Origin: Alphaproteobacteria bacterium
GTDB lineage: Bacteria > Pseudomonadota > Alphaproteobacteria > Rs-D84
Length of the DNA: 42,903 nt
Direction: 5' to 3'
NCBI GenBank assembly: GCA_017554365.1
Contig: JAFZIM010000081.1
Location: 1-42,903, forward strand
In this document: piece by piece, positions 22,526 through 35,137 of the stretch
How the letters are laid out: each line of letters begins with the position of its first letter
Position numbering within the stretch: position 1 is the first letter of the stretch
The notes under the pieces: generated by a model
The model's database searches: none
What the model saw: only the letters and a program-made list of their open reading frames with translations
What the model was told of the DNA's origin: nothing
Program-made: the position numbers and the translations under genes

Positions 22526-22673
22526 AACTTTCTCCTTAATTACTATATGTGAAAATATAATACACATCAGTTGATAATTCAAGAGATAACAAAACATAAA
22601 TTTTAACACATTGCTTGACAAATACACTTTTGTCAATTATATTATTCGTATAAAAACAATAAAAGGGGCTAAC

Positions 22674-22910
22674 ATGGCTATAAAAAAAGAAGATTTAACA
22701 TATAAAACAGACCACCAAAAATTTTTGGAACAGCAGGAAGCTTTGCTTATACAAAGAGAAACTGAATTATCCAAATTAGAATCTATTAAAGATAAAACAC
22801 CTGCCATTGAAAAACGCATAGCCAGATATAATGAAATTATATTCAATATAAAAACAGGTATTGCTTTTGTTCAAATGGCTGAAAAAACACGTCGTCCTTA
22901 TGGTTTATAA
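22674..22910 (+). CDS. Small coiled-coil-like hypothetical protein (78 aa)
   Basis: ATG at 22674 is preceded by SD aaaagggg. Charged helical sequence. No motif recognised. Confidence 0.45.
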   Translation: MAIKKEDLTYKTDHQKFLEQQEALLIQRETELSKLESIKDKTPAIEKRIARYNEIIFNIKTGIAFVQMAEKTRRPYGL

Positions 22911-22925
22911 AAAAAGGAAAATAAA

Positions 22926-23204
22926 ATGAAACGCATGAGTCATGCAGCAAGAGATTTATTAAGACGCAAAACAATATATGAAAATGCGCAAAATAAGTAC
23001 AATCGTAATGCGGTTTTTGATTATCCTGCAAATGCACAAATTAACATAGAAAGATTTGAACACAAAATAGAAGAAGTAAAAACAGAAAGTGGTTATACAG
23101 AAGAACAAAGGGCAGAAAAGATTGCTTGGTGTCAAAGTAAAATTGCAGATATTAAACAATCTGTCCAAAGATTTTATGAACAACACCCTTGGATACAAAA
23201 ATAA
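22926..23204 (+). CDS. Small hypothetical protein (92 aa)
   Basis: SD aaaggaaaa lies upstream. Charged helical sequence. A terminator follows. Confidence 0.45.
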   Translation: MKRMSHAARDLLRRKTIYENAQNKYNRNAVFDYPANAQINIERFEHKIEEVKTESGYTEEQRAEKIAWCQSKIADIKQSVQRFYEQHPWIQK

Positions 23205-23295: not shown

Positions 23296-24123
23296 ATGGC
23301 TATTGTTATTGACCCTATATCACCGATTGCATTTTCTGTATTTGGTTTACCAATACGTTGGTATGCGCTGGCTTATATAACAGCGTTTGTCGTCGGTTTT
23401 TTTCTTTTGAAATATTTATCAAGACGCGATGATTCAGAAATATTTTTATCAAAAAAACAATTAGATGATATATTAACTGCCTTTGTCTTAGGCGTAATTA
23501 TCGGTGGCAGGTTAGGGTATGTATTATTTTATAATTTACCTTTCTTTTTATCACACCCATTGGAAATATTTGCACTTTGGCATGGCGGAATGAGTTTCCA
23601 CGGCGGATTTTTAGGTGTCATAGTCGCAACAATGTTATTTGCAAGAAATCAAAATTTTGCGGATAAATCTGTATATAGAAATACTATGCGAATACTTGAT
23701 TTGATGGCGGTGTTATGTCCAATTGGTTTAGGATTGGGGCGTATTGCAAACTTTATCAATATGGAATTAATAGGTCGTGAAACAACATCTTCACTTGGTA
23801 TCGTATTTGCTGGTTATTCAACAATACCGCGTCATGCAAGCCCTATATATGAAGCATTTATGGAAGGTTTAATTTTATTTATAATAATGTGGTTGCTTTA
23901 TAATAAAACAAATCTTCGTAAATACGCTGGTGCGTTAAGTGGTTGTTTTTGTATGCTTTACGCCATATTCAGAATTATATGCGAACAATTCAGACAACCT
24001 GATGCACAGATTGGATTTTTGACTTCTTGGGGATTAACAATGGGGCAATTATTATCAATTTGTGTATTTATAATTGGAATAATCGTTTTTTCTTGCTCAT
24101 TCATAAAAAAGAAAGTACAATAG
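23296..24123 (+). CDS. lgt: Prolipoprotein diacylglyceryl transferase
   Basis: The internal ATG at 23296 gives the typical Lgt N-terminus MAIVIDPISPIAFSVFGLPIRWYALAYI. Also LWHGGMSFHGGFLG and GRIANFINMELIGR. Confidence 0.9.
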   Translation: MAIVIDPISPIAFSVFGLPIRWYALAYITAFVVGFFLLKYLSRRDDSEIFLSKKQLDDILTAFVLGVIIGGRLGYVLFYNLPFFLSHPLEIFALWHGGMSFHGGFLGVIVATMLFARNQNFADKSVYRNTMRILDLMAVLCPIGLGLGRIANFINMELIGRETTSSLGIVFAGYSTIPRHASPIYEAFMEGLILFIIMWLLYNKTNLRKYAGALSGCFCMLYAIFRIICEQFRQPDAQIGFLTSWGLTMGQLLSICVFIIGIIVFSCSFIKKKVQ

Positions 24124-24146
24124 TTATATAGCAAAAGGGGGACGAT

Positions 24147-24206
24147 ATGATTTTGAAAGTTTCAGTTGGTGGCATAAGAATAAAACGTGATGATAATCAG
24201 GACTAA
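24147..24206 (+). CDS. Micro-ORF, copy 1: MILKVSVGGIRIKRDDNQD
   Basis: SD aaaggggga lies 5 nt upstream of the ATG. A paralogous copy sits 142 nt downstream; all three substitutions in the first 16 codons are synonymous. Confidence 0.4.
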   Translation: MILKVSVGGIRIKRDDNQD

Positions 24207-24288
24207 AAATGCGATGGTTTTGTAATCGTTTTTTCTTGTTCTTATCATGAAAAAGAAAGTATAATATTTATATACAAAAGGAAACAAT

Positions 24289-24348
24289 ATGATTCTGAAA
24301 GTTTCAGTTGGTGGTATCAGAATAAAACGTGATGATTACCAGGAATAA
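24289..24348 (+). CDS. Micro-ORF, copy 2: MILKVSVGGIRIKRDDYQE
   Basis: SD aaaagga lies upstream. Same length and frame as copy 1. Differs by three synonymous changes plus N17Y and D19E. Confidence 0.4.
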   Translation: MILKVSVGGIRIKRDDYQE

Positions 24349-24408
24349 ATAGGATTATACTATGAAAATAAGATTGGAAATAGAATTTTAGTCATATATA
24401 AAAAAATA

Positions 24409-24437
24409 TTGACTTTTCCAATATGAAAATATAAACT
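24409..24437 (+). promoter_or_regulatory. Putative sigma70-type promoter for tRNA-Ser
   Basis: ttgact(24409-24414), 17-nt spacer, taaact(24432-24437), ending ~29 nt upstream of the tRNA 5' end. Confidence 0.4.
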
Positions 24438-24465: not shown

Positions 24466-24555
24466 GGATGGGTGGCAGAGCGGTCGAATGCGACGGTCTT
24501 GAAAACCGCTGAAGTCGCAAGGCTTCCGGGGGTTCGAATCCCTCCCCATCCGCCA
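24466..24555 (+). tRNA. tRNA-Ser (anticodon TGA), class II with long variable arm
   Basis: Acceptor ggatggg/cccatcc. Anticodon arm acggt-ctTGAaa-accgc (one A:C mismatch at the top of the stem). Variable arm tgaagtcgcaaggcttc. T loop ttcgaat. Discriminator G and encoded CCA; 90 nt. Confidence 0.88.
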
Positions 24556-24565
24556 CTAAGTTTAG

Positions 24566-24599
24566 ACATCCCGTGGTAATCCCACGGGATGTTCTTTTT
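24566..24599 (+). terminator. Rho-independent terminator after tRNA-Ser
   Basis: 11-bp stem acatcccgtgg(24566-24576)/ccacgggatgt(24582-24592), then tcttttt. Confidence 0.85.
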
Positions 24600-24783
24600 C
24601 GCCCGGTTTCCGGCTGTTTTTGTGGGCAACATTACCAGTGTATATCGCCATCCGCGCCCAACCCGCTAAAATTCACCACAATTATATACCTTGTCCAATT
24701 TCCCGATGCCAGTTTCTTGTTGTTTTTTGTGGATTTTATAATAATTTGTTTTAACATAAAATGAGTAAAACGATAGAAATCAA

Positions 24784-25758
24784 ATGACACAAGATAATAA
24801 AGTAATAAAATTAGAAACCTTTTCCACCCATTTCTTTACAAATGGGGCAGACAAACATTTTATAATAGCGGAAGATTATAAAATATTTATAGAAAGCATA
24901 GAACAGATACTAGCGAACATAAATACGGAATTACTGAAAGGACAAGCAAAGTACGAATTATGCATCGTTGCAAACAAAGAAGGTGGTTTTTGGAGTACTG
25001 TTGGTGTGCTTGGGACTTTAATAAGTATACCTGCTGCATTGGATTCAGAACTTATACATGGTTTCTATACAGGATTAACTGGACACGATTATGATTTAAG
25101 AAGTGTCGGTGAAAATGTTGGAAGTTTTTTACGAGACGCAACTGTCGGTATTTTTTCTAAGAATGCGACAGAACTGTCGAAAATTATACCCCAAGAATTA
25201 AATCTAGACAAAGCGATTTATGCTAAAAATGGGTTTTATCGTATGTGTGCTACGAATCAAGACATTAGGGGTGTGTCTTTTTCTGATAGCAATGAGCCAG
25301 AAATTCAAAAGAAAGATTTTGTAAATTATATTGTGTCCGATACCGACAAAAATTTACCAGCAGAACAGTTTATAGATATTGTTACAATTGTTAAATCGGT
25401 AAATGTAAAAAGTGATGCTAAATGGTCGGTAAAAATTGGCGAAAGTGCCAAACCCAAATCTGTAGAAATGTTAGATGACGAATTTAAAAAAGAATTCCTA
25501 TCTGGTCGATATGCAATAAAACAGACTGAACAAGATGACACGATGACGGTTTTATTAGAAAAAAAGAAAAAATATGTCAACGGACATGAACAAGACGCCG
25601 GTTTATCCATAGTAAAAGTATATAAATTTAATGATACACAAATATTACCAATTCCGTCAGATATTGTTCATAAAACACGTCGTCCAAAAATAGATTTGTT
25701 TAATTTTCAAGACGAAACAGCAATTGATTCTTCTGCGCAATCTGAAATAACTCATTAA
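24784..25758 (+). CDS. Hypothetical protein (324 aa), orphan
   Basis: Long ORF with balanced composition and one hydrophobic segment, GGFWSTVGVLGTLISIPAAL. Its convergent 59-nt overlap with the recombinase 3' end makes the exact C-terminus uncertain. Confidence 0.45.
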   Translation: MTQDNKVIKLETFSTHFFTNGADKHFIIAEDYKIFIESIEQILANINTELLKGQAKYELCIVANKEGGFWSTVGVLGTLISIPAALDSELIHGFYTGLTGHDYDLRSVGENVGSFLRDATVGIFSKNATELSKIIPQELNLDKAIYAKNGFYRMCATNQDIRGVSFSDSNEPEIQKKDFVNYIVSDTDKNLPAEQFIDIVTIVKSVNVKSDAKWSVKIGESAKPKSVEMLDDEFKKEFLSGRYAIKQTEQDDTMTVLLEKKKKYVNGHEQDAGLSIVKVYKFNDTQILPIPSDIVHKTRRPKIDLFNFQDETAIDSSAQSEITH

Positions 25759-27310
25759 CATTAATTTTTAATTTCCCAGACAAGATTTGATTTATCTTGT
25801 TTGGGTTCATATATGCTATGTCTAGGTATCGATAGAATTGTCGTGGTGATATATGTAATTTATGTGTGATGTCATCCACACCTTCATCTTGTTCATATAG
25901 TTCCCTATATTTCCATGCGGTAGCGAAGGCTTTGACTATTAGGTGATGATTGTCAGTTACACTTAGAACGCCATTTTTACCACGGTCATATACTGTATTA
26001 ACATATTTTCTTAGGAACACTTTTTCTGTTATTGTTATATGGTTGTCACTAATTATATATTCCATTTGTTCTGTATTTTGGTTCATGTAATTTTCAGTTA
26101 TAAATGGTTGCAATATTTTTGGGTCTATTGTCAGTGTATAAATTAGTTGTTCTTGGGAATATATGACCTTTTCAACAAGTGTGCGTATAAAACAACGTTT
26201 TTGTGTATATGGCATATCAGTGATATTTATTTGTTTCAAAATGGTTGATAAATTAAGTGGCAAATTTGACATATCACTGTTTAAGAAATTTGTTATTGTT
26301 TTTATTACTATTTCATCAACGCGAGGACTACTTAAATAAAATCCTTTGGTTGCATAGTAATGCACAGATTGATTGTTTTTACCTTTGGTACATTGGTTTA
26401 TGAATTTCACACCATTGTGATTAAATAGTTTACCAGTTAATATGTTTGGCGCATGTGTGGTTTTAGCAGATTTATTATTTGAATTATTTGTTAGTGCAAT
26501 TTGTACCTGGTTAAATAAATCATTTGATATAATTGGTTCATGTTCGCCTTTGGCAAAGGTGTTTTCTTTTTTGTTTTCAATTTGACCTATATAAATCTTG
26601 TCACGCAGAATGCGATGCATACTCATTTTGCTAATTGGATTACCACCACGAATTTGACGTTTATTTGTTTCCCAACGTTTACCATATATACCATTTTGAC
26701 GTGCGTATTCAGTCAAGTCATTTACAGATTGTAATTCCAAATACTTTTCAAACAATTGCTGAACCTGTTCGGCTTCAGTTGGGTTCACCACCAATTTTTT
26801 ATTTATCAAATCATAACCTAGTCGTGGTGGACCGCCCATCCATAGCCCTTTGGCTTTACTTGCTCGTATTTTATCACGAACACGTTCACTTGAAACTTCG
26901 CGTTCAAATTGCGCGAATGATAACAGCATATTTAATGTTAGTTTTCCCATGGAAGTACTGGTATCAAACGATTGGGTAATAGATACGAAATTAGCACCGT
27001 ATTTTTCAAAGTATTTCATCATATTGTGGAAGTCTAAGATTGAACGTGATAATCGGTCAACTTTGTAAACTACTACAGTATTTACTAAACCATGTGCCAT
27101 ATCATCTAACATTTGCTTTAGAGCAGGGCGGTCCATAGTTCCACCAGATATAGCAGCATCGCTGTACGTTTTATAATGTTGCCATCCATTGAATGATTGG
27201 GAGGCAATATATGCCTTGCAAGATTCTTCTTGGTTTTGCAAAGAATTAAATTCCTGTTCCAATCCATGTTCAGTAGATTTACGCGTATAAATAGCGCATT
27301 TAATTGTCAT
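25700..27310 (-). CDS. Large serine recombinase (resolvase/invertase catalytic domain plus recombinase domain)
   Basis: N-terminus CAIYTRKSTEHGLEQE contains the catalytic Ser in the YxRxS context. Also VVVYKVDRLSRS and FAQFEREVSSERVRDK. 536 aa. Only 4 Cys, none in CxxC pairs. Overlaps the upstream DUF2924-like gene by 11 nt. Confidence 0.88.
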   Translation of the reverse strand: MTIKCAIYTRKSTEHGLEQEFNSLQNQEESCKAYIASQSFNGWQHYKTYSDAAISGGTMDRPALKQMLDDMAHGLVNTVVVYKVDRLSRSILDFHNMMKYFEKYGANFVSITQSFDTSTSMGKLTLNMLLSFAQFEREVSSERVRDKIRASKAKGLWMGGPPRLGYDLINKKLVVNPTEAEQVQQLFEKYLELQSVNDLTEYARQNGIYGKRWETNKRQIRGGNPISKMSMHRILRDKIYIGQIENKKENTFAKGEHEPIISNDLFNQVQIALTNNSNNKSAKTTHAPNILTGKLFNHNGVKFINQCTKGKNNQSVHYYATKGFYLSSPRVDEIVIKTITNFLNSDMSNLPLNLSTILKQINITDMPYTQKRCFIRTLVEKVIYSQEQLIYTLTIDPKILQPFITENYMNQNTEQMEYIISDNHITITEKVFLRKYVNTVYDRGKNGVLSVTDNHHLIVKAFATAWKYRELYEQDEGVDDITHKLHISPRQFYRYLDIAYMNPNKINQILSGKLKINVNELFQIAQKNQLLFRLEN

Positions 27311-27740
27311 GTTTGCCTCCTTTGTTTATACCAAAGAAGAACATCCCAGATGTTTTTGCACCTGTTATTTTAGTTGATATAGCAGACAGGCTTTTGTATT
27401 TTTCATTATTATAAGTAAATGTATCGTCATCATTGACAATAATTTCATGCTTTATACCCTTGAAATATCGTGTCAGAATTGTGCCTGGAATAAATAGATA
27501 TTTATTTTGCCGTGCATGTTCTAGGCATTGTTCCGGATTATCTTTGAATTTGCGAATTTTTATCAGGTATTTTGGTTCAATTCGCAGGTTTAGGCGGTCA
27601 TATTGAATATAATACCAAAGCGACCGCATTTGTCGTTTAAACGGATATTGTGAGTACTTTGTCCATAATCGTGCCCGTTCATCAAAAGACAAGGCTTTTA
27701 GCTCGTCTAGCGTCTTTGGCAGGGTATCTTTATACGACAT
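27300..27740 (-). CDS. DUF2924-like protein (recombinase-associated)
   Basis: 146 aa. C-terminal ...YNNEKYKSLSAISTKITGAKTSGMFFFGI matches my recollection of the DUF2924 signature (Y.SLSAIA..ITG...SG..FFGL). That family is typically encoded directly upstream of serine recombinases. Confidence 0.6.
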   Translation of the reverse strand: MSYKDTLPKTLDELKALSFDERARLWTKYSQYPFKRQMRSLWYYIQYDRLNLRIEPKYLIKIRKFKDNPEQCLEHARQNKYLFIPGTILTRYFKGIKHEIIVNDDDTFTYNNEKYKSLSAISTKITGAKTSGMFFFGINKGGKHDN

Positions 27741-27849
27741 ATAGACTCCTTTATAACGTCAAGCAATTACCGCTCTAAAGAAGCCAAAAGTCAAGTTATT
27801 AAAAGAAATACAAATAACCACGTAATATATGTCTAAAAACATCATACAA

Positions 27850-29037
27850 TTATAAGTGTTTGTTCAACCATCGGCGTACAGAATTTTTTATCTGCTCGCT
27901 TGGCATAATACGGGGTACAGCATAAACCAGCATGCGTTTAATTTGATAACGCATAAAGCCGCCTTTTGCACGAAAAGCATGGCGGTATTTCTGTCTTGTT
28001 TTGTCATTACAAATAAGATCTTGTTCATTATAAATAAATTTATAATCGTGTAAAAATTGTTTTAGATATTTTGTTGGACCAATGATTTGTGGAAATTCAG
28101 ACCAATGATGTGTCGGCAATATCTCTTTTGCACAATCTACCAGAACAAAATTACATTTTTTTATTTTACATAACAAATATTGCGTATCAGAATTATCAGC
28201 AAGCAATTTGTTGCGTTTAATTTGTATGACTCTGCCTCCATTGGGCATAAATAAAGATAGATGCAATGCTGACCCGGCAATACCGGCTAAACATTTACAA
28301 TGGCTCATGTATTCAATTTGTTTAGATAGAGATAATTGCTCTGGATGAATAACAACGAAACCATTTTTTTCAAAGATTTTTTGAATACAACTTTCTCCAA
28401 AAGTGGCACGATTCGGCAATTTTTCTCGTGATACATATATTTTGTCAAAGTATAATTTTGGATGGATACGAGTAGAAGCAGAATCAAATATTTTGGCAAA
28501 TTCCAAAGAATATTTATTAGGAATCTCAAAGGCAACTGGCGGCACATACAGGCATTTGACTTTCACGTTGGTATTTATCAAGTAAATATCTGATTTTTTA
28601 ATACCCAATGCAGCCAGAAATTCTAATACAAAATCAGGTATTTTTTGCAAATTTCGGTTATTCAATATTATATATTTCACATTCTTGTATTTATGATACA
28701 AAGCTGAGTACAAACGATTTGTATGTTCTAATAAAAAATGTCCAAAATGATCTTCCAGTGTGCCGAGATAAACCGCATCTATATCCAATACTTCCGCTTC
28801 GGATGTAAATACTGGAGCTTGTTGCACAATTTTGTTTCGCAACTGTAAAGACTCTTTAATTATATTGCCTTTTGCATCAAACACTCCGAATCTTTGTGTG
28901 TTCGGCTCAATAACTATGGTGGCATTGTTTATAGTACGAATACGTAAAGAGCGCGTATTGTGAATATTATTGATAGATTTTGCGAAAAAACGCTTATATC
29001 TATCAGAAGCATAAATAATTGGGTTCATACTATTCAT
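27850..29037 (-). CDS. GT61/DUF563-like glycosyltransferase
   Basis: 395 aa. EDHFGHFLLEHTNRLY resembles the conserved H-x-[FY]GHWL..-..RL motif of DUF563 (GT61) capsule/protein glycosyltransferases. Confidence 0.55.
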   Translation of the reverse strand: MNSMNPIIYASDRYKRFFAKSINNIHNTRSLRIRTINNATIVIEPNTQRFGVFDAKGNIIKESLQLRNKIVQQAPVFTSEAEVLDIDAVYLGTLEDHFGHFLLEHTNRLYSALYHKYKNVKYIILNNRNLQKIPDFVLEFLAALGIKKSDIYLINTNVKVKCLYVPPVAFEIPNKYSLEFAKIFDSASTRIHPKLYFDKIYVSREKLPNRATFGESCIQKIFEKNGFVVIHPEQLSLSKQIEYMSHCKCLAGIAGSALHLSLFMPNGGRVIQIKRNKLLADNSDTQYLLCKIKKCNFVLVDCAKEILPTHHWSEFPQIIGPTKYLKQFLHDYKFIYNEQDLICNDKTRQKYRHAFRAKGGFMRYQIKRMLVYAVPRIMPSEQIKNSVRRWLNKHL

Positions 29038-30139
29038 GTTTTGTTTTTATAATATTTTGATACAATTTAATTACAGAATCTATATTATGTTGAATGTCAT
29101 ATTTATTGCAGACAGATTTTTTTAATTGTTGCCCCAGGATTTTTTGACGTTCTTCATCTTGTAATAACTTTATTATTGCACGAGCTAATAAATCAGTTGA
29201 GCAACTTTTTATTAAAACACCTGTTTTGTTGTTAATAAGCTCTTTGATTCCCCCGACTTTTGTCGCTATTACAGGTTTTCCCAGTAATGCTAGCTCTATT
29301 AAAGATGTAGGAATGCTTTCAAACAAGGACGGTTGTACAAAGATATCGTGTTTGTTTGCGATAGTACCAGGTCCCAGGCTCGGATCAAATACACCAGCAA
29401 AAACAACATTGTTTCCCAGTCCTAATGACATAGCAAGTCGTTCATAGTGTGGTTTGGCACGACCATCACCGTACAAAAATAATTTTGCGCCGGGGATATG
29501 TCGAATTACCTCTTTCCATGCAAACAATAATACACCAATACCCTTTTCTGGGGACATTCTTGCAATGCAGGCGACTGAATTTGGTATATATTTGGTTTTG
29601 TGTAAGCGTGGTTTGCGTATAAAATGCGGAATTATTTGTATAGGCCCATCAAACTTATGAAAATTTTTTATGCCTTTAGCTGATGCTGTACAGGTTGCAA
29701 CAAAGGTATTTATACAATTTAATATCCTGCCGAAATGTTTTGGGTACCAAAACGCGGAATCCGTACATGGTGTTGTATGTTCGGTTGCAACAATCGGGAT
29801 GTTTGGTGCTTTTTTATATTTTAAGTATGCCGCTAACAAATTACCTGCTGGACTGGCATGGATTATATCTGGTGACCAAGCGATAAAATCCGCCATGATA
29901 TCTTTGATGAATTCATCATCTATACTGCGGTCTTCACGATTTTTGCGAAAATGTTTAGGGGCATATGTTTTTATGTTATGTTTTTGTAAAATTTCAAACC
30001 AGTACAAGTTTGTCGGTTTTTCGCACACAAACACACGTACGTCTATATCTCTTTCCTTTAATTCCAATGCCAATGTGGCGTTGTAATGCTCTGTACCCCC
30101 GAATGAGTGCAAGTAATCACAAAATATAGCAACTTTCAC
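29030..30139 (-). CDS. GT4 (GT-B fold, Glycos_transf_1) glycosyltransferase
   Basis: N-terminus MKVAIFCDYLHSFGGTEHYNATLALEL. C-terminal EX7E region VQPSLFESIPTSLIELALLGKPVIATKVGGIKELI. Confidence 0.85.
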   Translation of the reverse strand: MKVAIFCDYLHSFGGTEHYNATLALELKERDIDVRVFVCEKPTNLYWFEILQKHNIKTYAPKHFRKNREDRSIDDEFIKDIMADFIAWSPDIIHASPAGNLLAAYLKYKKAPNIPIVATEHTTPCTDSAFWYPKHFGRILNCINTFVATCTASAKGIKNFHKFDGPIQIIPHFIRKPRLHKTKYIPNSVACIARMSPEKGIGVLLFAWKEVIRHIPGAKLFLYGDGRAKPHYERLAMSLGLGNNVVFAGVFDPSLGPGTIANKHDIFVQPSLFESIPTSLIELALLGKPVIATKVGGIKELINNKTGVLIKSCSTDLLARAIIKLLQDEERQKILGQQLKKSVCNKYDIQHNIDSVIKLYQNIIKTKHE

Positions 30140-30253
30140 TTTTATGCCTCTTTGTGTTTAATTTTAACAACAGAAATTCTAAGGTCAATAATTTCTATAA
30201 AAATTTGACAACTAAAAACAATATGCTACGATGAAACAGTCACAGGGGCCATT

Positions 30254-30751
30254 ATGTCAGAAAAGACACTTTTTATATTAAAACCTGATGCTCTTCAACT
30301 GAGCTTAAGGACATTGTGCGCCAGATTTGACTTTTATAAACAACTTCGTACAAATGATTTATCTATCTTGGCATCTGCAAAATTCAATATGACATATGAT
30401 ATGTTGATGGCATATCAGCCTGTGTTGGCACCAGATTTTCAGACAGAAATGACTCAGGATTGGAAAGATGCTACAATAGATTATCATTTGGGTAAAGATC
30501 ATTCTGGGAAAGAACATTTGTTGGTTGTTGTTGAGGGATACAACGCTCTGGCGAAAGGTCCTATTATTAAACGAGCTATTCGAAACAAATATTGTACACC
30601 ATGGGAAAAGTATGCACCTGGTAATTTGATTCATGCACCAGACAACAATGAAGAATACGAAAATGATTTATATTCATTTCAATCTGTACTTAGTTCGACA
30701 AAGAATTCAAAAAAACTAGACTTTTTCCATAATACAAGGAGAGAAAAATGA
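30254..30751 (+). CDS. Nucleoside-diphosphate-kinase-like fold protein (divergent)
   Basis: EKTLFILKPDAL aligns with NDK ERTxxxIKPDAV. LLVVVEGYNALAKG aligns with the NDK VLEGENAV region. NLIHAPDNNEE aligns with the NDK catalytic-His motif NxxHGSDS. SD aggggc lies upstream. Confidence 0.5.
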   Translation: MSEKTLFILKPDALQLSLRTLCARFDFYKQLRTNDLSILASAKFNMTYDMLMAYQPVLAPDFQTEMTQDWKDATIDYHLGKDHSGKEHLLVVVEGYNALAKGPIIKRAIRNKYCTPWEKYAPGNLIHAPDNNEEYENDLYSFQSVLSSTKNSKKLDFFHNTRREK

Positions 30752-31215
30752 TAAAAGAAGTAAGTTATGCGGCATATATCATACCAGTCCGTGTTGTTGA
30801 CGGCAAAAAAGAAATCGCTATATTAGAATATGCACCTGGGGCTTATGGCACCATTGGTGGTCGTTTTGATGATGGTGAAACTACAGCCACACAAGCATTA
30901 ACCCGTGAATTATGTGAAGAGTTGGGCAAATCTTCCGAATTTATGGTTGGTTTAGCTCAACAAGTTGCTGAACCTTATAAGTTTAAGGTTGCAGAACATA
31001 AAATAGAGAAGCGCGGTGCTTATAACGAAGCACATGTCTTTTTTGTCGCAAAGGTCCCTAGCAACACAGTGCTTGAATTTTGTGAAGAACGTGAAGACAC
31101 GGTAAAAGTGTTTTGGCTTGATTCTGAAGCATTGGTTGATGAAAAGGTGATTGGGCTTCCAGATCAACGAGAATATTTTGAAAAGAATGTTATGCCAATA
31201 ATACGCAAGATATAA
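30748..31215 (+). CDS. NUDIX hydrolase
   Basis: Nudix box GGRFDDGETTATQALTRELCEELG (Gx5Ex7REUxEExGU). ATGA overlap with the upstream gene. SD aaggaga. Confidence 0.85.
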   Translation: MIKEVSYAAYIIPVRVVDGKKEIAILEYAPGAYGTIGGRFDDGETTATQALTRELCEELGKSSEFMVGLAQQVAEPYKFKVAEHKIEKRGAYNEAHVFFVAKVPSNTVLEFCEEREDTVKVFWLDSEALVDEKVIGLPDQREYFEKNVMPIIRKI

Positions 31216-31223
31216 AGTAAGCT

Positions 31224-32300
31224 ATGAATATACTGATTCATTATTATAGATTGGGACATTACATCGGTGGTACCGAGGTTGTTGCCTTGAATCAATGTAC
31301 GGAATTTGTAAAACAAGGACATAATGTAACTATTTTGACGGCCGATGTTGGTAGGCATTCAAAAATATTTAATGAATTTATTTCTGCAAACCCGACTGTA
31401 AAGCTCGTGGAATTGCCTCTAACGATACCACGAAAAACAGGCGACACGTGGACAGATATAGATGTAGAATCATATTTGTTTGGAAAAATTGCTGCGATAA
31501 ATTTTTATGCCACCAATACAGAGCAATTTGATATTGTTGTTATTCATAATAAAACAGATGCACTTTTTATTCCGGATTGCTATAAAAAAGTCATACACCT
31601 GCATGGTTCACCAGAAATTTTTGATAATCTAATGGAAATTGCTTTGTATGACGCTAATGGATTATTGGCTGTTTCTGAAAGTGTAAAAGATGCCTGGACT
31701 ACTAATATTAAATCTCTGCGGCAACCAATATCGGTTATTCATAATGGTATTGATAATTCAATCTTTTACAACACACATCAAAAGCGGGATATAGATGTTT
31801 TGTTTGTTGGTCGTCTTTATCCACACAAAGGTATTTTAGAATTATTAGAAATATCCGATACCAATGATTTTAAATTTGTTATTATTGGTGCAGGACCATT
31901 GGAAACCGAAATAGTAAAACACCCTCGAGTTCAGCATTACAAAAACTTATCCACTGAACAATTAACCGATTTTTATAATAGAGCAAAAATTTTTGCTGGT
32001 CCCTCTACTGCAAAAGAAGGGGTTTTAACAACGATGTTAGAAGCAGCAATGTGTGGCTGCGCAATAATAACCACAGATTGTGCCGGCATGGTGGATTTTG
32101 CAAAGCATGGTTTTAATTCTTTGCTAGTGCCACCCAAAGATGTTGAAGCTTTATCTGCTGCAATAAAAGAATTGTTAGCAAACGATGAACTGCGCTCACT
32201 TATTGCCAGAAATGCTGAATCCGATGCTGTGAACAATTGGAATATACAACGACAAACCAACAAATTGTTAGAGTTTTATAAATCTGTAATATGCGAATAG
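31224..32300 (+). CDS. GT4 (GT-B fold) glycosyltransferase
   Basis: GGTEVVALNQCTEFVKQGHNVTILT and the C-terminal PSTAKEGVLTTMLEAAMCGCAIITTDCAGMVDF (EX7E-type region). Confidence 0.8.
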   Translation: MNILIHYYRLGHYIGGTEVVALNQCTEFVKQGHNVTILTADVGRHSKIFNEFISANPTVKLVELPLTIPRKTGDTWTDIDVESYLFGKIAAINFYATNTEQFDIVVIHNKTDALFIPDCYKKVIHLHGSPEIFDNLMEIALYDANGLLAVSESVKDAWTTNIKSLRQPISVIHNGIDNSIFYNTHQKRDIDVLFVGRLYPHKGILELLEISDTNDFKFVIIGAGPLETEIVKHPRVQHYKNLSTEQLTDFYNRAKIFAGPSTAKEGVLTTMLEAAMCGCAIITTDCAGMVDFAKHGFNSLLVPPKDVEALSAAIKELLANDELRSLIARNAESDAVNNWNIQRQTNKLLEFYKSVICE

Positions 32301-33118
32301 AAATACAATCTTTAGGTCAAGGTATTGTGTGTGATATGCCACAAGATATATGCGACATGGTATCTGACCATTATTTTTTATCAGAGTATATACCAAATGC
32401 ACGTGTAATTAAATCAAAGGCACAAGCAGAACTAAATGTTCATATTGGCAATACTTTTGACCGGCAAGACAAGCATATTACAATTACAAAAGTTGACAGT
32501 GACATACGTTCATTTATTGTGATTGTAGGGGCTTTACTAGAGTATAAAAGACAGCATTGTAGGTTATACCAAGTTCATGGCTCTGCGGTTGCGATAAAAG
32601 ATAATGCAGTTGCTATAATTGGTGGCATGTCGGGTATTGGAAAAACGACTTTGGCTCTGTTCATGCATACTATGCCACATGTGATATTTATCGGAGATGA
32701 GAAATTTGTTTTGGACGGGCAAAATAAAACACTAGTTGGAGGTTGTCCAATATCAAAAGATAATTATAAAAGTAAAAATATACAATCTGTCAGTGTTGCT
32801 CCTTACAACGGTGCAGTGCATTTAAAATTAGTCGTATTTCCCATTATTACCGACGAACCAAGTATAACGTATTACAAATTGGATTCATTAAAGTTATTTT
32901 GGCATTTGTATGAGGAAGCAAGCAGAGATATCCGTAATCTAAATATGTTGTATGATAATTTCACAAAAACTGCAAACAGTTTTGATTCTGACAATATAAT
33001 GAAACAACGATTAGCAGATATTCAAAATATATCAAAAAACACTCCCGCATATTTTATACGTGGCAATGTATCAGAAGTTGCCAAATTTATTTATAATTTA
33101 ACGACATCATCAACGTAA
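32291..33118 (+). CDS. HPr-kinase-C-like P-loop protein (HprK-related kinase)
   Basis: VHGSAVAIKDNAVAIIGGMSGIGKTTLALFM...FIGDEKFVL parallels HprK C-domain HGvlv...G.GvLitG.SGiGKSe.AL...lvaDD. The N-terminal ~90 aa is unassigned. Start is uncertain (no SD at 32291). Confidence 0.55.
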   Translation: MRIEIQSLGQGIVCDMPQDICDMVSDHYFLSEYIPNARVIKSKAQAELNVHIGNTFDRQDKHITITKVDSDIRSFIVIVGALLEYKRQHCRLYQVHGSAVAIKDNAVAIIGGMSGIGKTTLALFMHTMPHVIFIGDEKFVLDGQNKTLVGGCPISKDNYKSKNIQSVSVAPYNGAVHLKLVVFPIITDEPSITYYKLDSLKLFWHLYEEASRDIRNLNMLYDNFTKTANSFDSDNIMKQRLADIQNISKNTPAYFIRGNVSEVAKFIYNLTTSST

Positions 33119-33711
33119 TTACTAACAAGTACAGTCTTGATGCCTAGCAGATGTGCTGGCATAATATCTACTGCTACATTATCCCCAAACAAAATGGCTT
33201 TTTCAACAGGAACATCAAGTTTCTGTAGAATAATCTCCAAATTTCTGATAGATGGTTTTGATTCTACTTGGTCTTCGCGAGCAAAAACAACCACTTTGGA
33301 CGATAAAGGATATCTACTGGTTATAGAATCTACTTTTTCCCTAGACAACGATGTGTACAAACATACCTTGTTTGTTTCGCTTAGTTTATTTAGGAATTTG
33401 ATGATTTCTGGTTTGATACGGTTTAATTCATAATACTTTTTTGACAATTCTTCCGCTTTACTATCATCTATTACAATGCCGTTACCCGCACACGCACTCG
33501 CAATATGTGAAGCAGTCGAACTGTTTTTACTTTTCTCATATGCTCGTTCCATACCAACATTTATTTCGGCAACCTGTAATTTAGACAAGTCCGGAAACGC
33601 ATCAGACAGCATTTTAACCTTGGCATCGTGATTGTTATCTAATACACCATTTATATCAAAAATCAGCACATCATAATGACTTGCATATTTCATAAAATCA
33701 TCTATAATCAT
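33091..33711 (-). CDS. HAD-superfamily hydrolase-like protein
   Basis: Motif I-like VLIFDINGVLD (DxN instead of DxD). Motif IV-like LFGDNVAVDI. 206 aa. Confidence 0.6.
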   Translation of the reverse strand: MIIDDFMKYASHYDVLIFDINGVLDNNHDAKVKMLSDAFPDLSKLQVAEINVGMERAYEKSKNSSTASHIASACAGNGIVIDDSKAEELSKKYYELNRIKPEIIKFLNKLSETNKVCLYTSLSREKVDSITSRYPLSSKVVVFAREDQVESKPSIRNLEIILQKLDVPVEKAILFGDNVAVDIMPAHLLGIKTVLVSNYVDDVVKL

Positions 33712-33733
33712 TATAAATCCTTATAAATTGGAC

Positions 33734-34714
33734 ATGATGATGATATCACCTTTGACAATTGGTATTCCAGTAAAAAATGAAGAAAACACAATTTCCTCTA
33801 CATTGAGAGCCTTGGATAATGCTATAAAATATTTAGACAAGCGAATACCGATTGAAACTATTGTTTGTCTTAATGGTACCACTGATAATACACAGGCTAT
33901 AATCGAAAGTTATAAAAACAGAGCATTGTGCAAAAGACTGAATTTGAGCATCGTACGCTCTCGTGCCGGCAAACTTCTAGCAGAAAGGAAAATTGCACGT
34001 GTACGTAAATTACACGGTTTTATACTGTATTGTGACGCTGATACCATAATAGATAAACGAGCGATAAAAGAGCTATATGCGAGTGTGTGTAAAAATGATA
34101 ATTTGCGTGTGGCTTGCGCCAAGGTTTTACCTATTTTTAATAAACCTCTAAATAATTTCCAAAAAATAATGAAAGCATACTATGAAATGCGTTATTTGCT
34201 GCCTGTACGAGGTTGTTTTCATGGACGTATGTTTATTGTGCGTGATGCGGATGATGTCTTGGAACAGTATGATATTGCGGAACGGATTAAGAGAGTGCCA
34301 CGGAACACCGTAAGGAAACTATATTTGGATAAAGGACCAATATGTGATGATATTGTGCTTTCAGCGGCGATTGTACACAAATATGGTCAGCACGCAATAC
34401 AAAGGGTGCATACGGCCAAGGTTTATTTCTATCCGCCAGCCAATCGGTATGATTTTTTCTTAGGTGTGCGACGATACACAATTGAAATGCAACGTATAAA
34501 TACATTATTTCCGGAATTTGTATCTATAAACAATTCTAAACCATTTGAACGCCCAGTAAAAATAGTTAAATGGACAATGTTTAGGCGTAAAAAACATCTT
34601 GCCGAAACTTTAATGGAATTTGAATATTTCTTGAGTAACATTGTAAAAATGTACGAACTTGAAACCAATAATCTTGAATTGTGGGAAACTGTAGAATCAA
34701 GCAAGCTCCACTAA
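33734..34714 (+). CDS. GT2 glycosyltransferase
   Basis: LTIGIPVKNEENTISSTLRALDNA...IVCLNGTTDNT and the DxD in ILYCDADTII. The ATG at 33734 was chosen; a TTG at 33728 is also possible. Confidence 0.7.
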   Translation: MMMISPLTIGIPVKNEENTISSTLRALDNAIKYLDKRIPIETIVCLNGTTDNTQAIIESYKNRALCKRLNLSIVRSRAGKLLAERKIARVRKLHGFILYCDADTIIDKRAIKELYASVCKNDNLRVACAKVLPIFNKPLNNFQKIMKAYYEMRYLLPVRGCFHGRMFIVRDADDVLEQYDIAERIKRVPRNTVRKLYLDKGPICDDIVLSAAIVHKYGQHAIQRVHTAKVYFYPPANRYDFFLGVRRYTIEMQRINTLFPEFVSINNSKPFERPVKIVKWTMFRRKKHLAETLMEFEYFLSNIVKMYELETNNLELWETVESSKLH

Positions 34715-34736
34715 AAGTGATAATTTTCGCATTTTA

Positions 34737-34904
34737 ATGCTTTTTCTTGATTTTTATGTTGTTTTAAGCTATGTTTTTGATGAATCCAACTCTGCATCAT
34801 TAAATCCGATGTATAACCAAAATAAAACAGCATATGATTTTTATATTAAATATGGATTTAAACCCATAGAACAAAAAATGCATTTAAAGATAATAACAAG
34901 ATAA
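34737..34904 (+). pseudogene. 5'-truncated GNAT acetyltransferase relic (C-terminal ~45 codons)
   Basis: The frame reads ...YVFDESNSASLNPMYNQNKTAYDFYIKYGFKPIEQKMHLKIITR*. This is the classic GNAT C-terminal A..FY.K.GF motif, with no upstream acetyl-CoA-binding core. Confidence 0.55.
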
Positions 34905-34930
34905 AAAAACGCCCATTTGGGCGTTTTTAT
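34903..34930 (+). terminator. Rho-independent terminator
   Basis: Stem acgccca(34909-34915)/tgggcgt(34919-34925), loop ttt, then ttttat. Confidence 0.8.
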
Positions 34931-34967
34931 AAAAGTGTTTGTTGGAAAGAGAATATATACAAAAGAT

Positions 34968-34995
34968 TTGACATTTGGTCTTTTATTGTTAAACT
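34968..34995 (+). promoter_or_regulatory. Putative sigma70-type promoter with ~140-nt leader before the 80-aa ORF
   Basis: ttgaca(34968-34973), 16-nt spacer, taaact(34990-34995). This is the same -10 hexamer as the tRNA-Ser promoter candidate. Confidence 0.35.
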
Positions 34996-35137
34996 ACTTC
35001 ACAATGATTTATTTAAAACGCAATTTCTTTGGTTTATTTTTTGCCCTGTAAAACGGGGCTATATTTCATACTATTTTTATTTTTCATAATACTTATTTTA
35101 CAAGCAATAAACAGATAATAAAAAAAAGGATATTATC

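What the first reader, a model, noticed from the sequence alone, without database searches (positions are those of the whole stretch)
24081..24366. Tandemly duplicated 19-codon micro-ORF (MILKVSVGGIRIKRDD..) with an lgt-tail relic, between lgt and tRNA-Ser
A ~143-bp unit is present twice in tandem. It comprises the last 14 codons of lgt, a spacer, a Shine-Dalgarno and a 19-codon ORF. In copy 2 the lgt-tail is decayed and has lost its stop, yet both micro-ORFs keep identical length, start, stop and SD. All three substitutions in the first 16 codons are synonymous (ttg>ctg, ggc>gtt-type third-position change ggc>ggt, ata>atc). The only replacements are at the C-terminal positions 17 (N>Y) and 19 (D>E). 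The upstream non-coding part of the unit is more diverged, roughly 15-18% with indels versus 10% in the ORF by hand count. This looks like purifying selection on a tiny peptide that standard annotation would miss. The function is unknown; a small regulatory or secreted peptide, a leader peptide or an addiction-type peptide are all speculative. Both copies also contain the palindrome tgaaagtttca, so a DNA or RNA element cannot be excluded.
Basis: seen in the sequence. Interest (0 to 1): 0.58.

Follow-up and report, generated by a model that had tools for sequence, protein, structure and literature searches.

The report
Duplicated micro-gene from a micro-peptide array
The repeat is a duplicated, real 19-codon gene, one member of a previously undescribed family of tiny (5-26 codon) genes kept by selection behind the lgt gene in some gut bacteria with very small genomes; what the peptides do is unknown.

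Summary
A 142-bp unit (lgt tail, spacer, Shine-Dalgarno site, 19-codon ORF) occurs twice in tandem at 24080-24349, 86% alike. The host is an uncultured Candidatus Enterousia-like alphaproteobacterium with a genome of about 0.9 Mb.

The nearest sampled relative (Lgt 96% identical, lgt synonymous divergence 0.30) carries one copy encoding the identical peptide. A relative with 85% identical Lgt keeps the ORF with in-frame indels and synonymous changes.

The ORF belongs to a family. At least 19 of 257 species genomes of the genus carry 1-7 micro-ORFs, each with its own Shine-Dalgarno site, always between lgt and tRNA-Ser(UGA). Most end in an acidic Asp-Asp-Asn/Thr-Gln/Glu-Asp tail.

Across four independent species pairs, codon positions 1+2 diverge 7% and position 3 diverges 24%, the same as the spacers (p = 1e-5).

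Arrays grow by tandem duplication; a second lineage also copied an lgt tail. They shrink by decay. Copy 2 here has changed the family's most conserved motif.

No RNA structure, Rfam, Pfam or NCBIfam match was found. Function is unknown. My best guess is small acidic peptides that act free in the cell.

This scan has noted analogous but unrelated micro-ORF arrays in other genomes.

The parts
23296..24123 (+). lgt (prolipoprotein diacylglyceryl transferase). Its last 44 nt form the left end of repeat copy 1.
   Evidence: ORF listing. PF01790 on identical and related proteins.
24080..24222 (+). Repeat copy 1: lgt tail, 23-nt spacer with Shine-Dalgarno site (24135-24142), micro-ORF 1, and a 16-nt junction.
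   Evidence: TRF; alignment A1; the repeat finder.
24147..24206 (+). Micro-ORF 1: 19 codons, with the family's acidic C-terminal motif intact. This is the conserved copy.
   Evidence: Identical peptide in the single-copy relative, with 1 synonymous difference and 0 of 45 non-synonymous sites changed. Homologue in L114:4231-4293.
24223..24265 (+). Relic of the lgt tail in copy 2. It is non-coding, with a 1-nt insertion.
24289..24348 (+). Micro-ORF 2: the duplicate. It has 19 codons, its own Shine-Dalgarno site at 24278-24282, 4 synonymous and 2 replacement changes, both in the conserved tail motif.
24362..24391 (+). Micro-ORF 3: 9 codons. It is a truncated member of the helical sub-type of the family and is shared with the single-copy relative.
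   Evidence: last row of alignment A2. The full-length homologue is at L114:4306-4362.
24409..24437 (+). Sigma-70-like promoter of tRNA-Ser. The array ends 17 nt upstream of its first hexamer.
   Evidence: The same hexamer context is seen in relatives.
24466..24555 (+). tRNA-Ser (anticodon UGA), the right-hand landmark of the array in most species.
24565..24593 (+). Intrinsic terminator after tRNA-Ser. It is the only terminator-like site between lgt and the downstream island.

Best explanation
The 142-bp repeat is a gene duplication of a real, independently translated 19-codon micro-gene.

**The family.** The micro-gene belongs to a lineage-restricted family of micro-genes of 5-26 codons, each with its own Shine-Dalgarno site. 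They sit as an array of 1-7 units at the tail of the lgt transcription unit, just before tRNA-Ser(UGA), in a subclade of Candidatus Enterousia.

**What selection sees.** Selection acts on the amino-acid sequence. The most conserved features are an aliphatic or basic start and an acidic tail (Asp-Asp-Asn/Thr-Gln/Glu-Asp, then stop).

**How arrays change.** Arrays evolve by birth and death. Tandem duplications add units, and sometimes drag along a piece of the lgt tail. Point mutations then remove start codons, truncate units or fuse them. In this window copy 1 is the conserved gene. Copy 2 is a diverging, probably relaxing, duplicate. A third, truncated unit follows.

**What is shown and what is inferred.**
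- Shown: the repeat, its homologues, the coding-type selection and the turnover.
- Inferred: that the units are transcribed by read-through from lgt, since no terminator lies between them.
- Inferred: that the products act as free small acidic peptides in trans. I put this at about 40%, against about 25-30% for a cis effect of their translation. The longer members can form an amphipathic helix followed by the acidic tail.
For: **The repeat is real**.

**Orthologues.**
- The single-copy orthologue encodes the identical peptide. The flanking lgt has pS 0.30 and dS 0.39, while the ORF has 0 changes at 45 non-synonymous sites (p = 1e-6 against the lgt synonymous rate).
- In L114, 13 residues are kept, 5 of them with synonymous changes, and there are two in-frame indels.

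**The family is specific to one locus.**
- The tail-motif pattern gives 27 hits in 19 of 257 genus genomes, against 0 for the reversed control. Every hit lies behind lgt.
- The profile of the helical sub-type hits 12 further genomes at the same locus, always in frames of 23-39 codons.
- Micro-ORFs with a Shine-Dalgarno site number 45 on the lgt strand and 1 on the other strand, against 7.6 expected by shuffling.

**Coding-type selection.** In four independent species pairs, codon positions 1, 2 and 3 diverge by 8.1%, 6.4% and 24.2%, and the spacers by 24.4%. Positions 1+2 against position 3 give p = 1.1e-5. A five-codon member uses all four Gly codons while the rest of it is unchanged.

**Turnover.** There is an independent duplication that includes an lgt tail in L129. 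Start codons have been lost in L122 and L129.

**Independence from the tRNA.** Arrays persist and end in a strong terminator where the tRNA is inverted (L118, L132, L133). This argues against a role as leader of the tRNA.
Against: - There is no expression data of any kind: no transcript, ribosome footprint or peptide.
- Most species of the genus have only 5-90 nt between lgt and tRNA-Ser and no array, so the function is dispensable.
- Peptides of 5-7 residues are unlikely to be stable trans-acting molecules. That favours a cis effect for at least those members.
- The two copies in this window alone give only weak evidence (p about 0.02).
- Micro-ORF types used for the tally were picked by peptide pattern, which biases that tally. 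Only the comparisons annotated on a reference genome avoid this.
- The relatives are few and partly close kin.
Confidence: 0.55

Rival explanations
1. The micro-ORFs work in cis. What matters is the act of translating them and the behaviour of the nascent chain at termination. For example, they could keep ribosomes on the lgt read-through transcript so that Rho does not terminate before tRNA-Ser, or pause ribosomes at the acidic tail.
For: - No terminator lies between lgt and the tRNA.
- Rho is present in this genome and in 12 of 12 relatives.
- Units are spaced 10-25 nt apart, as in coupled re-initiation.
- Many members have only 5-7 codons, lengths at which the known functional ORFs act on their own ribosome (established knowledge of macrolide-resistance pentapeptides and of the cat and cmlA leaders; recalled, not tested).
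Against: - Simply being translated would not constrain the amino-acid sequence, yet positions 1+2 are conserved.
- The tRNA has its own promoter.
- In three species the tRNA is inverted and the array ends in a terminator with nothing downstream to regulate.
- There are no alternative hairpins.
Confidence: 0.25
2. It is a neutral by-product. A slippage-prone spacer next to a recombination hot spot duplicates at random, and the small frames are spurious.
For: - The locus is highly plastic, with tandem arrays of tRNA-Ser 5' halves and 3' fragments in relatives.
- Arrays are missing from most of the genus.
- Units decay.
Against: - Divergence is periodic by codon position (p = 1e-5).
- The peptide is identical across dS 0.39.
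- The strand bias is 45 to 1.
- Indels are in frame.
Confidence: 0.07
3. It is an RNA or DNA element rather than a set of genes: either a structured RNA or sponge that displays look-alike ribosome-binding sites (CsrB-like or STAB-SD-like), or a protein-binding palindrome or upstream activating region of the tRNA promoter.
For: - Purine-rich GGA-type motifs repeat along the array.
- The 11-nt palindrome is present in both copies.
- The last unit abuts the promoter, and its nucleotides persist in two lineages after the start codon was lost.
Against: - Folding energies are no better than shuffles, with z from -0.4 to -1.5 and one value of +1.1.
- No Rfam family matches.
- No CsrA was found, although the genome is only 73% complete.
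- The palindrome is not conserved in L114.
- Variation at third codon positions is the opposite of what a sequence-specific site predicts.
Confidence: 0.05
4. The units are scars or cargo of small integrative elements that target tRNA-Ser, with each insertion leaving a ribosome-binding site and the start of a gene.
For: - tRNA-Ser is an insertion site. An island with a serine recombinase lies 3' of it in this window and is absent from the 96% relative.
- Relatives carry tandem pseudo-copies of the tRNA's 5' half.
Against: - The units contain no tRNA fragment.
- Their order is conserved between species.
- Whole ORFs, including their stops, are conserved.
- The window's duplication is a plain head-to-tail copy of chromosomal sequence that includes the lgt tail.
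Confidence: 0.05

Closest known systems
Polycistronic small-peptide operons in bacteria (for example staphylococcal psm-alpha and B. subtilis yrzI/spyTA). This scan has also noted analogous unannotated micro-ORF arrays in CPR bacteria, a haloarchaeon and E. coli prophages (e1-1195606, e1-2643237, e1-140641).
   Same: - Several very short ORFs lie head to tail, each with its own ribosome-binding site.
- They are unannotated.
- The peptide sequences are conserved in close relatives.
- Copy number varies.
   Different: - There is no sequence relationship.
- The peptides here are acidic and not hydrophobic.
- Members are as short as 5 codons.
- The position between lgt and a tRNA gene is fixed.
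- The family is confined to part of one genus.
Repeats distal to tyrT in the E. coli tyrT operon, which carry tpr (a small protamine-like protein) and rttR (operon described in bioRxiv 10.1101/2024.07.17.603846; repeat details recalled from older literature).
   Same: - A tandemly repeated unit of 140-180 bp lies next to a tRNA gene.
- It holds a very small ORF.
- It is co-transcribed with neighbouring genes.
   Different: - The repeats there lie after the tRNA and the peptide is basic.
- The array here lies before the tRNA promoter, the peptides are acidic, and selection on the peptide is shown by comparison.
- Homology with tpr was not tested.
Leader peptides of attenuators and arrest peptides (trpL type, tnaC, cat-86 and cmlA leaders, erm leaders).
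   Same: - The ORFs have similar lengths and a Shine-Dalgarno site.
- The amino-acid sequence is under constraint although the peptide is too short to fold.
- Some known leaders also end in Asp (recalled from memory).
   Different: - No regulated protein gene lies downstream.
- There are no runs of a regulatory codon.
- There are no alternative hairpins.
- Arrays survive with a terminator directly behind them.
Mini-genes and macrolide-resistance pentapeptides (mini-gene effects: Dincbas et al. 1999, as cited in PMC10192219).
   Same: Family members of 5-7 codons with strong ribosome-binding sites are formally mini-genes.
   Different: - Those were found in selections or in phage.
- Nothing here links the array to antibiotics or to peptidyl-tRNA drop-off.
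- The ORF in the window has 19 codons.

Membership tests
Ribosome-mediated transcription attenuator (leader peptide) | The short ORF lies upstream of the structural genes that it regulates. | tested here: not met
   Downstream is a tRNA with its own promoter. In three species there is a terminator and an inverted tRNA instead.
Ribosome-mediated transcription attenuator (leader peptide) | Clustered codons for the sensed amino acid, and mutually exclusive terminator and antiterminator hairpins. | tested here: not met
   The only recurrent cluster is the Asp-rich tail. Folding is no better than shuffles, and there is no terminator-like site before the tRNA.
Type I toxin or addiction peptide | A hydrophobic membrane-spanning peptide of 20-60 residues. 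| tested here: not met
   The peptides are charged and acidic, have 5-26 residues, and show no hydrophobic stretch.
Type I toxin or addiction peptide | An overlapping or adjacent antisense RNA with its own promoter. | tested here: inconclusive
   The promoter scan gives one weak minus-strand match, near the tRNA, and counts are not above shuffles. There is no RNA data.
CsrB/RsmZ-type protein-sponge RNA | Many GGA motifs presented in hairpin loops, and a CsrA protein in the genome. | tested here: not met
   There is no structure signal. No CsrA was found in the own assembly, which is 73% complete. No Rfam hit.
Class II bacteriocin or double-glycine precursor | A leader of about 15-30 residues ending in Gly-Gly, followed by a core peptide. 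| tested here: not met
   The Gly-Gly falls at residues 8-9 of 19. Other family members lack it, or end directly after it.
Class II bacteriocin or double-glycine precursor | An adjacent C39-peptidase ABC exporter. | not tested
   The neighbouring genes seen are lgt, small unknown ORFs, and a recombinase island. No systematic search was made.
Microcin C-type heptapeptide precursor | A C-terminal Asn and an adjacent adenylating enzyme gene (recalled definition). | tested here: not met
   Family members end in Asp, Gly, Glu, Val or Ala. No such neighbouring gene is present.
Known protein or RNA families (Pfam, NCBIfam, Rfam) | A significant profile match. | tested here: not met
   No hit even at E = 10 for the three members of at least 20 residues. 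In Rfam only the tRNA matches.
Translated small-ORF gene (generic criteria) | Start, stop and ribosome-binding site are conserved, and substitutions are concentrated at third codon positions. | tested here: met

The most novel reading that the evidence does not exclude
A bank of ultra-short genes, some of only five codons, has peptide sequences under purifying selection in a bacterium with a genome of about 0.9 Mb. The peptides would act on the ribosome that makes them, or on the translation apparatus, for example by conditioning ribosomes or modulating termination or peptidyl-tRNA turnover. The array's copy number would be tuned by rapid tandem duplication. This would be a new class of cis-acting or ribosome-directed micro-peptides that is not tied to any downstream gene.
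Probability: 0.12. Interest if true: 0.85.

Novelty: new variant of a known kind. Interest (0 to 1): 0.55.

Why it matters
Standard annotation leaves this spacer empty. It nevertheless holds genes that selection maintains in an organism under strong pressure to lose DNA, including five- to seven-codon ORFs, the smallest size class for which coding constraint is rarely demonstrated.

The locus also shows the life cycle of micro-genes: birth by tandem duplication (caught twice independently with a telltale lgt-tail relic), fusion, truncation and loss.

It offers a compact, sequence-defined test case for asking what very short acidic peptides do in bacteria. It is also a reminder that intergenic repeats next to tRNA genes may be coding.

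Tried and rejected
**RNA-level explanations.**
- Rfam on the window region and on four related loci gave only the tRNA.
- Single-sequence folding of both units gave no signal.
- A CsrA search of the own genome found nothing.

**Protein-family searches.**
- Pfam and NCBIfam gave nothing for the three members long enough to submit.
Relatives among longer proteins were therefore not examined.

**Searches for more copies.**
- A six-frame search with the 19-residue peptide in 100 genus genomes found only the window. The family came to light only by reading the lgt-downstream DNA of relatives.
- Nucleotide search for further copies in the own genome found none.

**Ideas dropped.**
- That the ORF is a relic of the folD start: the relative with folD has the intact array after folD.
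- That a promoter lies inside the duplicated lgt tail: the consensus scan does not support it.
- The one out-of-genus pattern hit has no start codon and is judged to be chance.

**Other limits.**
- folD was not found in the own assembly, which is 73% complete, so this is uninformative.
- Several contigs of close relatives could not be fetched because the files were too large.
It was redone by reference.

Full report
**1. The observation**

Tandem Repeats Finder reports a single array at 24080-24349: period 142, 1.9 copies, 86% matches, score 419. A pairwise alignment and the repeat finder agree.

Each unit holds four parts:
- the last 44 nt of lgt (stop codon at 24121-24123);
- a spacer;
- a purine-rich Shine-Dalgarno site;
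- a 19-codon ORF.

ORF1 is 24147-24206 and ORF2 is 24289-24348. Three changes in codons 1-16 are synonymous, and there are replacements at residues 17 and 19.

By Nei-Gojobori counting the two ORFs differ by 4 synonymous and 2 non-synonymous changes (pS 0.33, pN 0.044). Only 1.7% of simulations with six random substitutions keep the frame with at most two residue changes. Taken alone this is suggestive, no more.

**2. Organism and context**

The window is contig 74 of an 0.88-Mb, 73%-complete assembly. Its lgt relatives are MAGs named Candidatus Enterousia or unclassified Alphaproteobacteria from ruminant, horse and human guts. This genus belongs to the order Rs-D84, whose members have reduced genomes (PMC12306168).

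Gene order is two small unknown ORFs, lgt, the repeat, tRNA-Ser(UGA) with its own promoter and terminator, and then an island with a serine recombinase.

**3. Close relatives**

An identical copy of the locus, with the duplication, occurs in two other assemblies that probably come from the same sample (L111, L112).

The next relative is L113, with Lgt 96% identical. Its lgt has pS 0.30, dS 0.39 and dN 0.02 against the window.
- It carries one unit only.
- Its ORF encodes exactly the peptide of copy 1, with one synonymous difference.
- Zero changes at 45 non-synonymous sites, against the lgt synonymous rate, gives p = 1e-6.

The copies differ from each other about as much as the two genomes differ at silent sites. 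Copy 1 is much closer to L113 than to copy 2. Either the duplication is about as old as that split and L113 lost a copy, or copy 2 has evolved faster. I cannot tell which.

In L114 (Lgt 85% identical) folD lies between lgt and the array. The homologous ORF follows folD. It has 21 codons, two in-frame indels and 13 conserved residues, five of which use different synonymous codons. Both the start region and the acidic tail are intact. A second ORF follows it, and the window's 9-codon ORF3 (24362-24391) is a truncated version of that ORF.

**4. A family, not a single ORF**

Reading the DNA behind lgt in other species showed arrays of micro-ORFs of 5-26 codons. Each has a Shine-Dalgarno site 5-10 nt before its ATG, and the units are separated by 10-25 nt.

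A degenerate 18-nt pattern for the common tail (Asp-Asp-Asn/Thr-Gln/Glu-Asp-stop) gave these results:
- 27 hits in 19 of 257 species genomes of the genus, and none for the reversed control;
- every hit lies just behind lgt, usually in front of tRNA-Ser;
- outside the genus there was one hit in 61 genomes, in a frame without a start codon, while the control hit twice.

A profile of the longer, helix-compatible sub-type (alignment A2) finds 12 further genomes. All hits are at this locus, in open frames of only 23-39 codons.

In the own genome the family occurs only here. Many other species of the genus have just 5-90 nt between lgt and the tRNA and no array.

Recurrent unit types appear in a conserved order in one subclade, with sizes of 7, 18, 13, 5, 5 and 7 codons.

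Alignment A3 shows two things about the window's ORF. Its second half aligns with free-standing 10-codon members. Its first half resembles a free-standing 7-codon member that ends in Gly-Gly. The 19-codon ORF may therefore be a fusion of two older units. This is an inference.

**5. Selection**

I aligned whole spacers between four phylogenetically separate species pairs and classified columns by the micro-ORF annotation of one partner only.

| Class of site | Differences | Divergence |
|---|---|---|
| Codon position 1 | 10 of 124 | 8.1% |
| Codon position 2 | 8 of 125 | 6.4% |
| Codon position 3 | 30 of 124 | 24.2% |
| Spacers | 81 of 332 | 24.4% |

Positions 1+2 against position 3 give p = 1.1e-5, and position 3 equals the spacers. 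Divergence at third positions of the lgt tail in the same pairs is similar.

A five-codon member uses all four Gly codons in different species with no other change. A seven-codon member varies only at the third positions of its Ile and Val codons. That tally selected sequences by peptide pattern, so I treat it as illustrative.

Micro-ORFs with a Shine-Dalgarno site number 45 on the lgt strand and 1 on the opposite strand, against 7.6 expected from shuffles.

Together these results show coding-type purifying selection.

**6. Alternatives tested**

- Neither unit folds better than shuffled sequence, with z from +1.1 to -1.5.
- Rfam finds only the tRNA.
- CsrA was not found.
- The palindrome is not conserved in L114.
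- No Pfam or NCBIfam family matches.
- A promoter inside the duplicated lgt tail is not supported by the consensus scan. The only terminator-like site lies after the tRNA. Read-through from lgt is therefore the simplest source of the transcript, which is an inference.

**7. Turnover**

- L129 carries an independent duplication in which a 49-nt block, including the end of lgt and the following Shine-Dalgarno site, occurs twice (94% identity). Its 18-codon unit also occurs twice.
- In L122 and L129 the last unit has lost its ATG. In L120 another unit has lost its start. Some species keep only one short unit.
- In the window, copy 2 has replaced two residues of the tail motif. One is now Tyr, which none of the roughly 45 family members seen has at that place. 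Copy 2 therefore looks like the relaxing partner.

**8. How it may work**

The longer members have aliphatic residues at spacings i, i+4, i+7 and i+8, followed by the acidic tail (alignment A2). This fits a short amphipathic helix that could dock on a partner protein.

In three species the tRNA is inverted and the array ends in a strong terminator. The array therefore does not need a downstream gene, which speaks against a leader function.

On this basis I favour free acidic peptides acting in trans, at about 40%. The five- to seven-codon members are hard to imagine as stable ligands, so a cis effect on the translating ribosome or on Rho-dependent polarity remains a serious rival at 25-30%. 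Rho is present. Nothing here measures expression.

**9. Comparison with known systems**

The closest kinds are:
- polycistronic small-peptide operons;
- the repeats distal to tyrT in E. coli, with tpr and rttR (bioRxiv 10.1101/2024.07.17.603846);
- leader and arrest peptides;
- mini-genes (Dincbas 1999, cited in PMC10192219).

The defining features of attenuators, type I toxins, CsrB-like sponges, double-glycine precursors and microcin C precursors were tested and not met (see the membership table).

This scan has recorded analogous, non-homologous micro-ORF arrays in CPR bacteria, a haloarchaeon, prophages and a Clostridia RNA. The phenomenon is therefore recurrent, but this family is new.

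**10. Verdict**

This is a new, lineage-restricted family within a known general kind. Its function is unknown and its interest is moderate.

Noticed in passing
L025:1000-1600; L129:1075-1291; L010:2449-2485; also L014, L122, L125, L126: Relatives carry 1-3 tandem pseudo-copies (period about 118-160 nt) upstream of the intact tRNA-Ser. Each pseudo-copy is the tRNA's 5' half up to the anticodon loop, followed by a G+C-rich insert of about 80 nt and the tRNA leader. This looks like repeated insertion of a miniature element that carries a replacement 5' half. No Rfam match.
   Followed up: partly
L010:2803-2821; L025:1748-1766; L114:4770-4797: Fragments of the tRNA-Ser 3' end (from the T-loop onwards) lie 150-250 nt downstream of the intact gene, each preceded by G+C-rich sequence. 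They look like att-type scars of integrative elements. In L118, L132 and L133 the tRNA plus its fragment is inverted relative to lgt.
   Followed up: partly
window 24556-35000: In the 96%-identical relative's contig, an acetyltransferase gene and a PNP_UDP_1 gene follow within 2.5 kb of lgt. In the window, a 324-residue orphan and a serine recombinase follow tRNA-Ser instead.
   Followed up: partly
L114:3342-4175: In the 84-85% relatives folD sits directly behind lgt and in front of the micro-ORF array. folD was not found in the window's own assembly, which is 73% complete. Elsewhere in the genus lgt is followed by RNase J, by tRNA-Asp plus tRNA-Glu, or by other genes. The lgt 3' flank is therefore a rearrangement hot spot.
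   Followed up: partly
L114:4420-4530 versus L010:2340-2450: The last short unit plus the tRNA-Ser promoter is about 96% identical between two species whose Lgt proteins are only 85% and 72% identical to the window's. L114 also holds a decayed second copy of the promoter. This may reflect recent exchange or strong constraint on this segment.
   Followed up: no
window 22611-23204: Two small co-oriented ORFs of about 78-99 and 92 residues, without Pfam hits, lie directly upstream of lgt. They are conserved in position in all close relatives examined.
   Followed up: no
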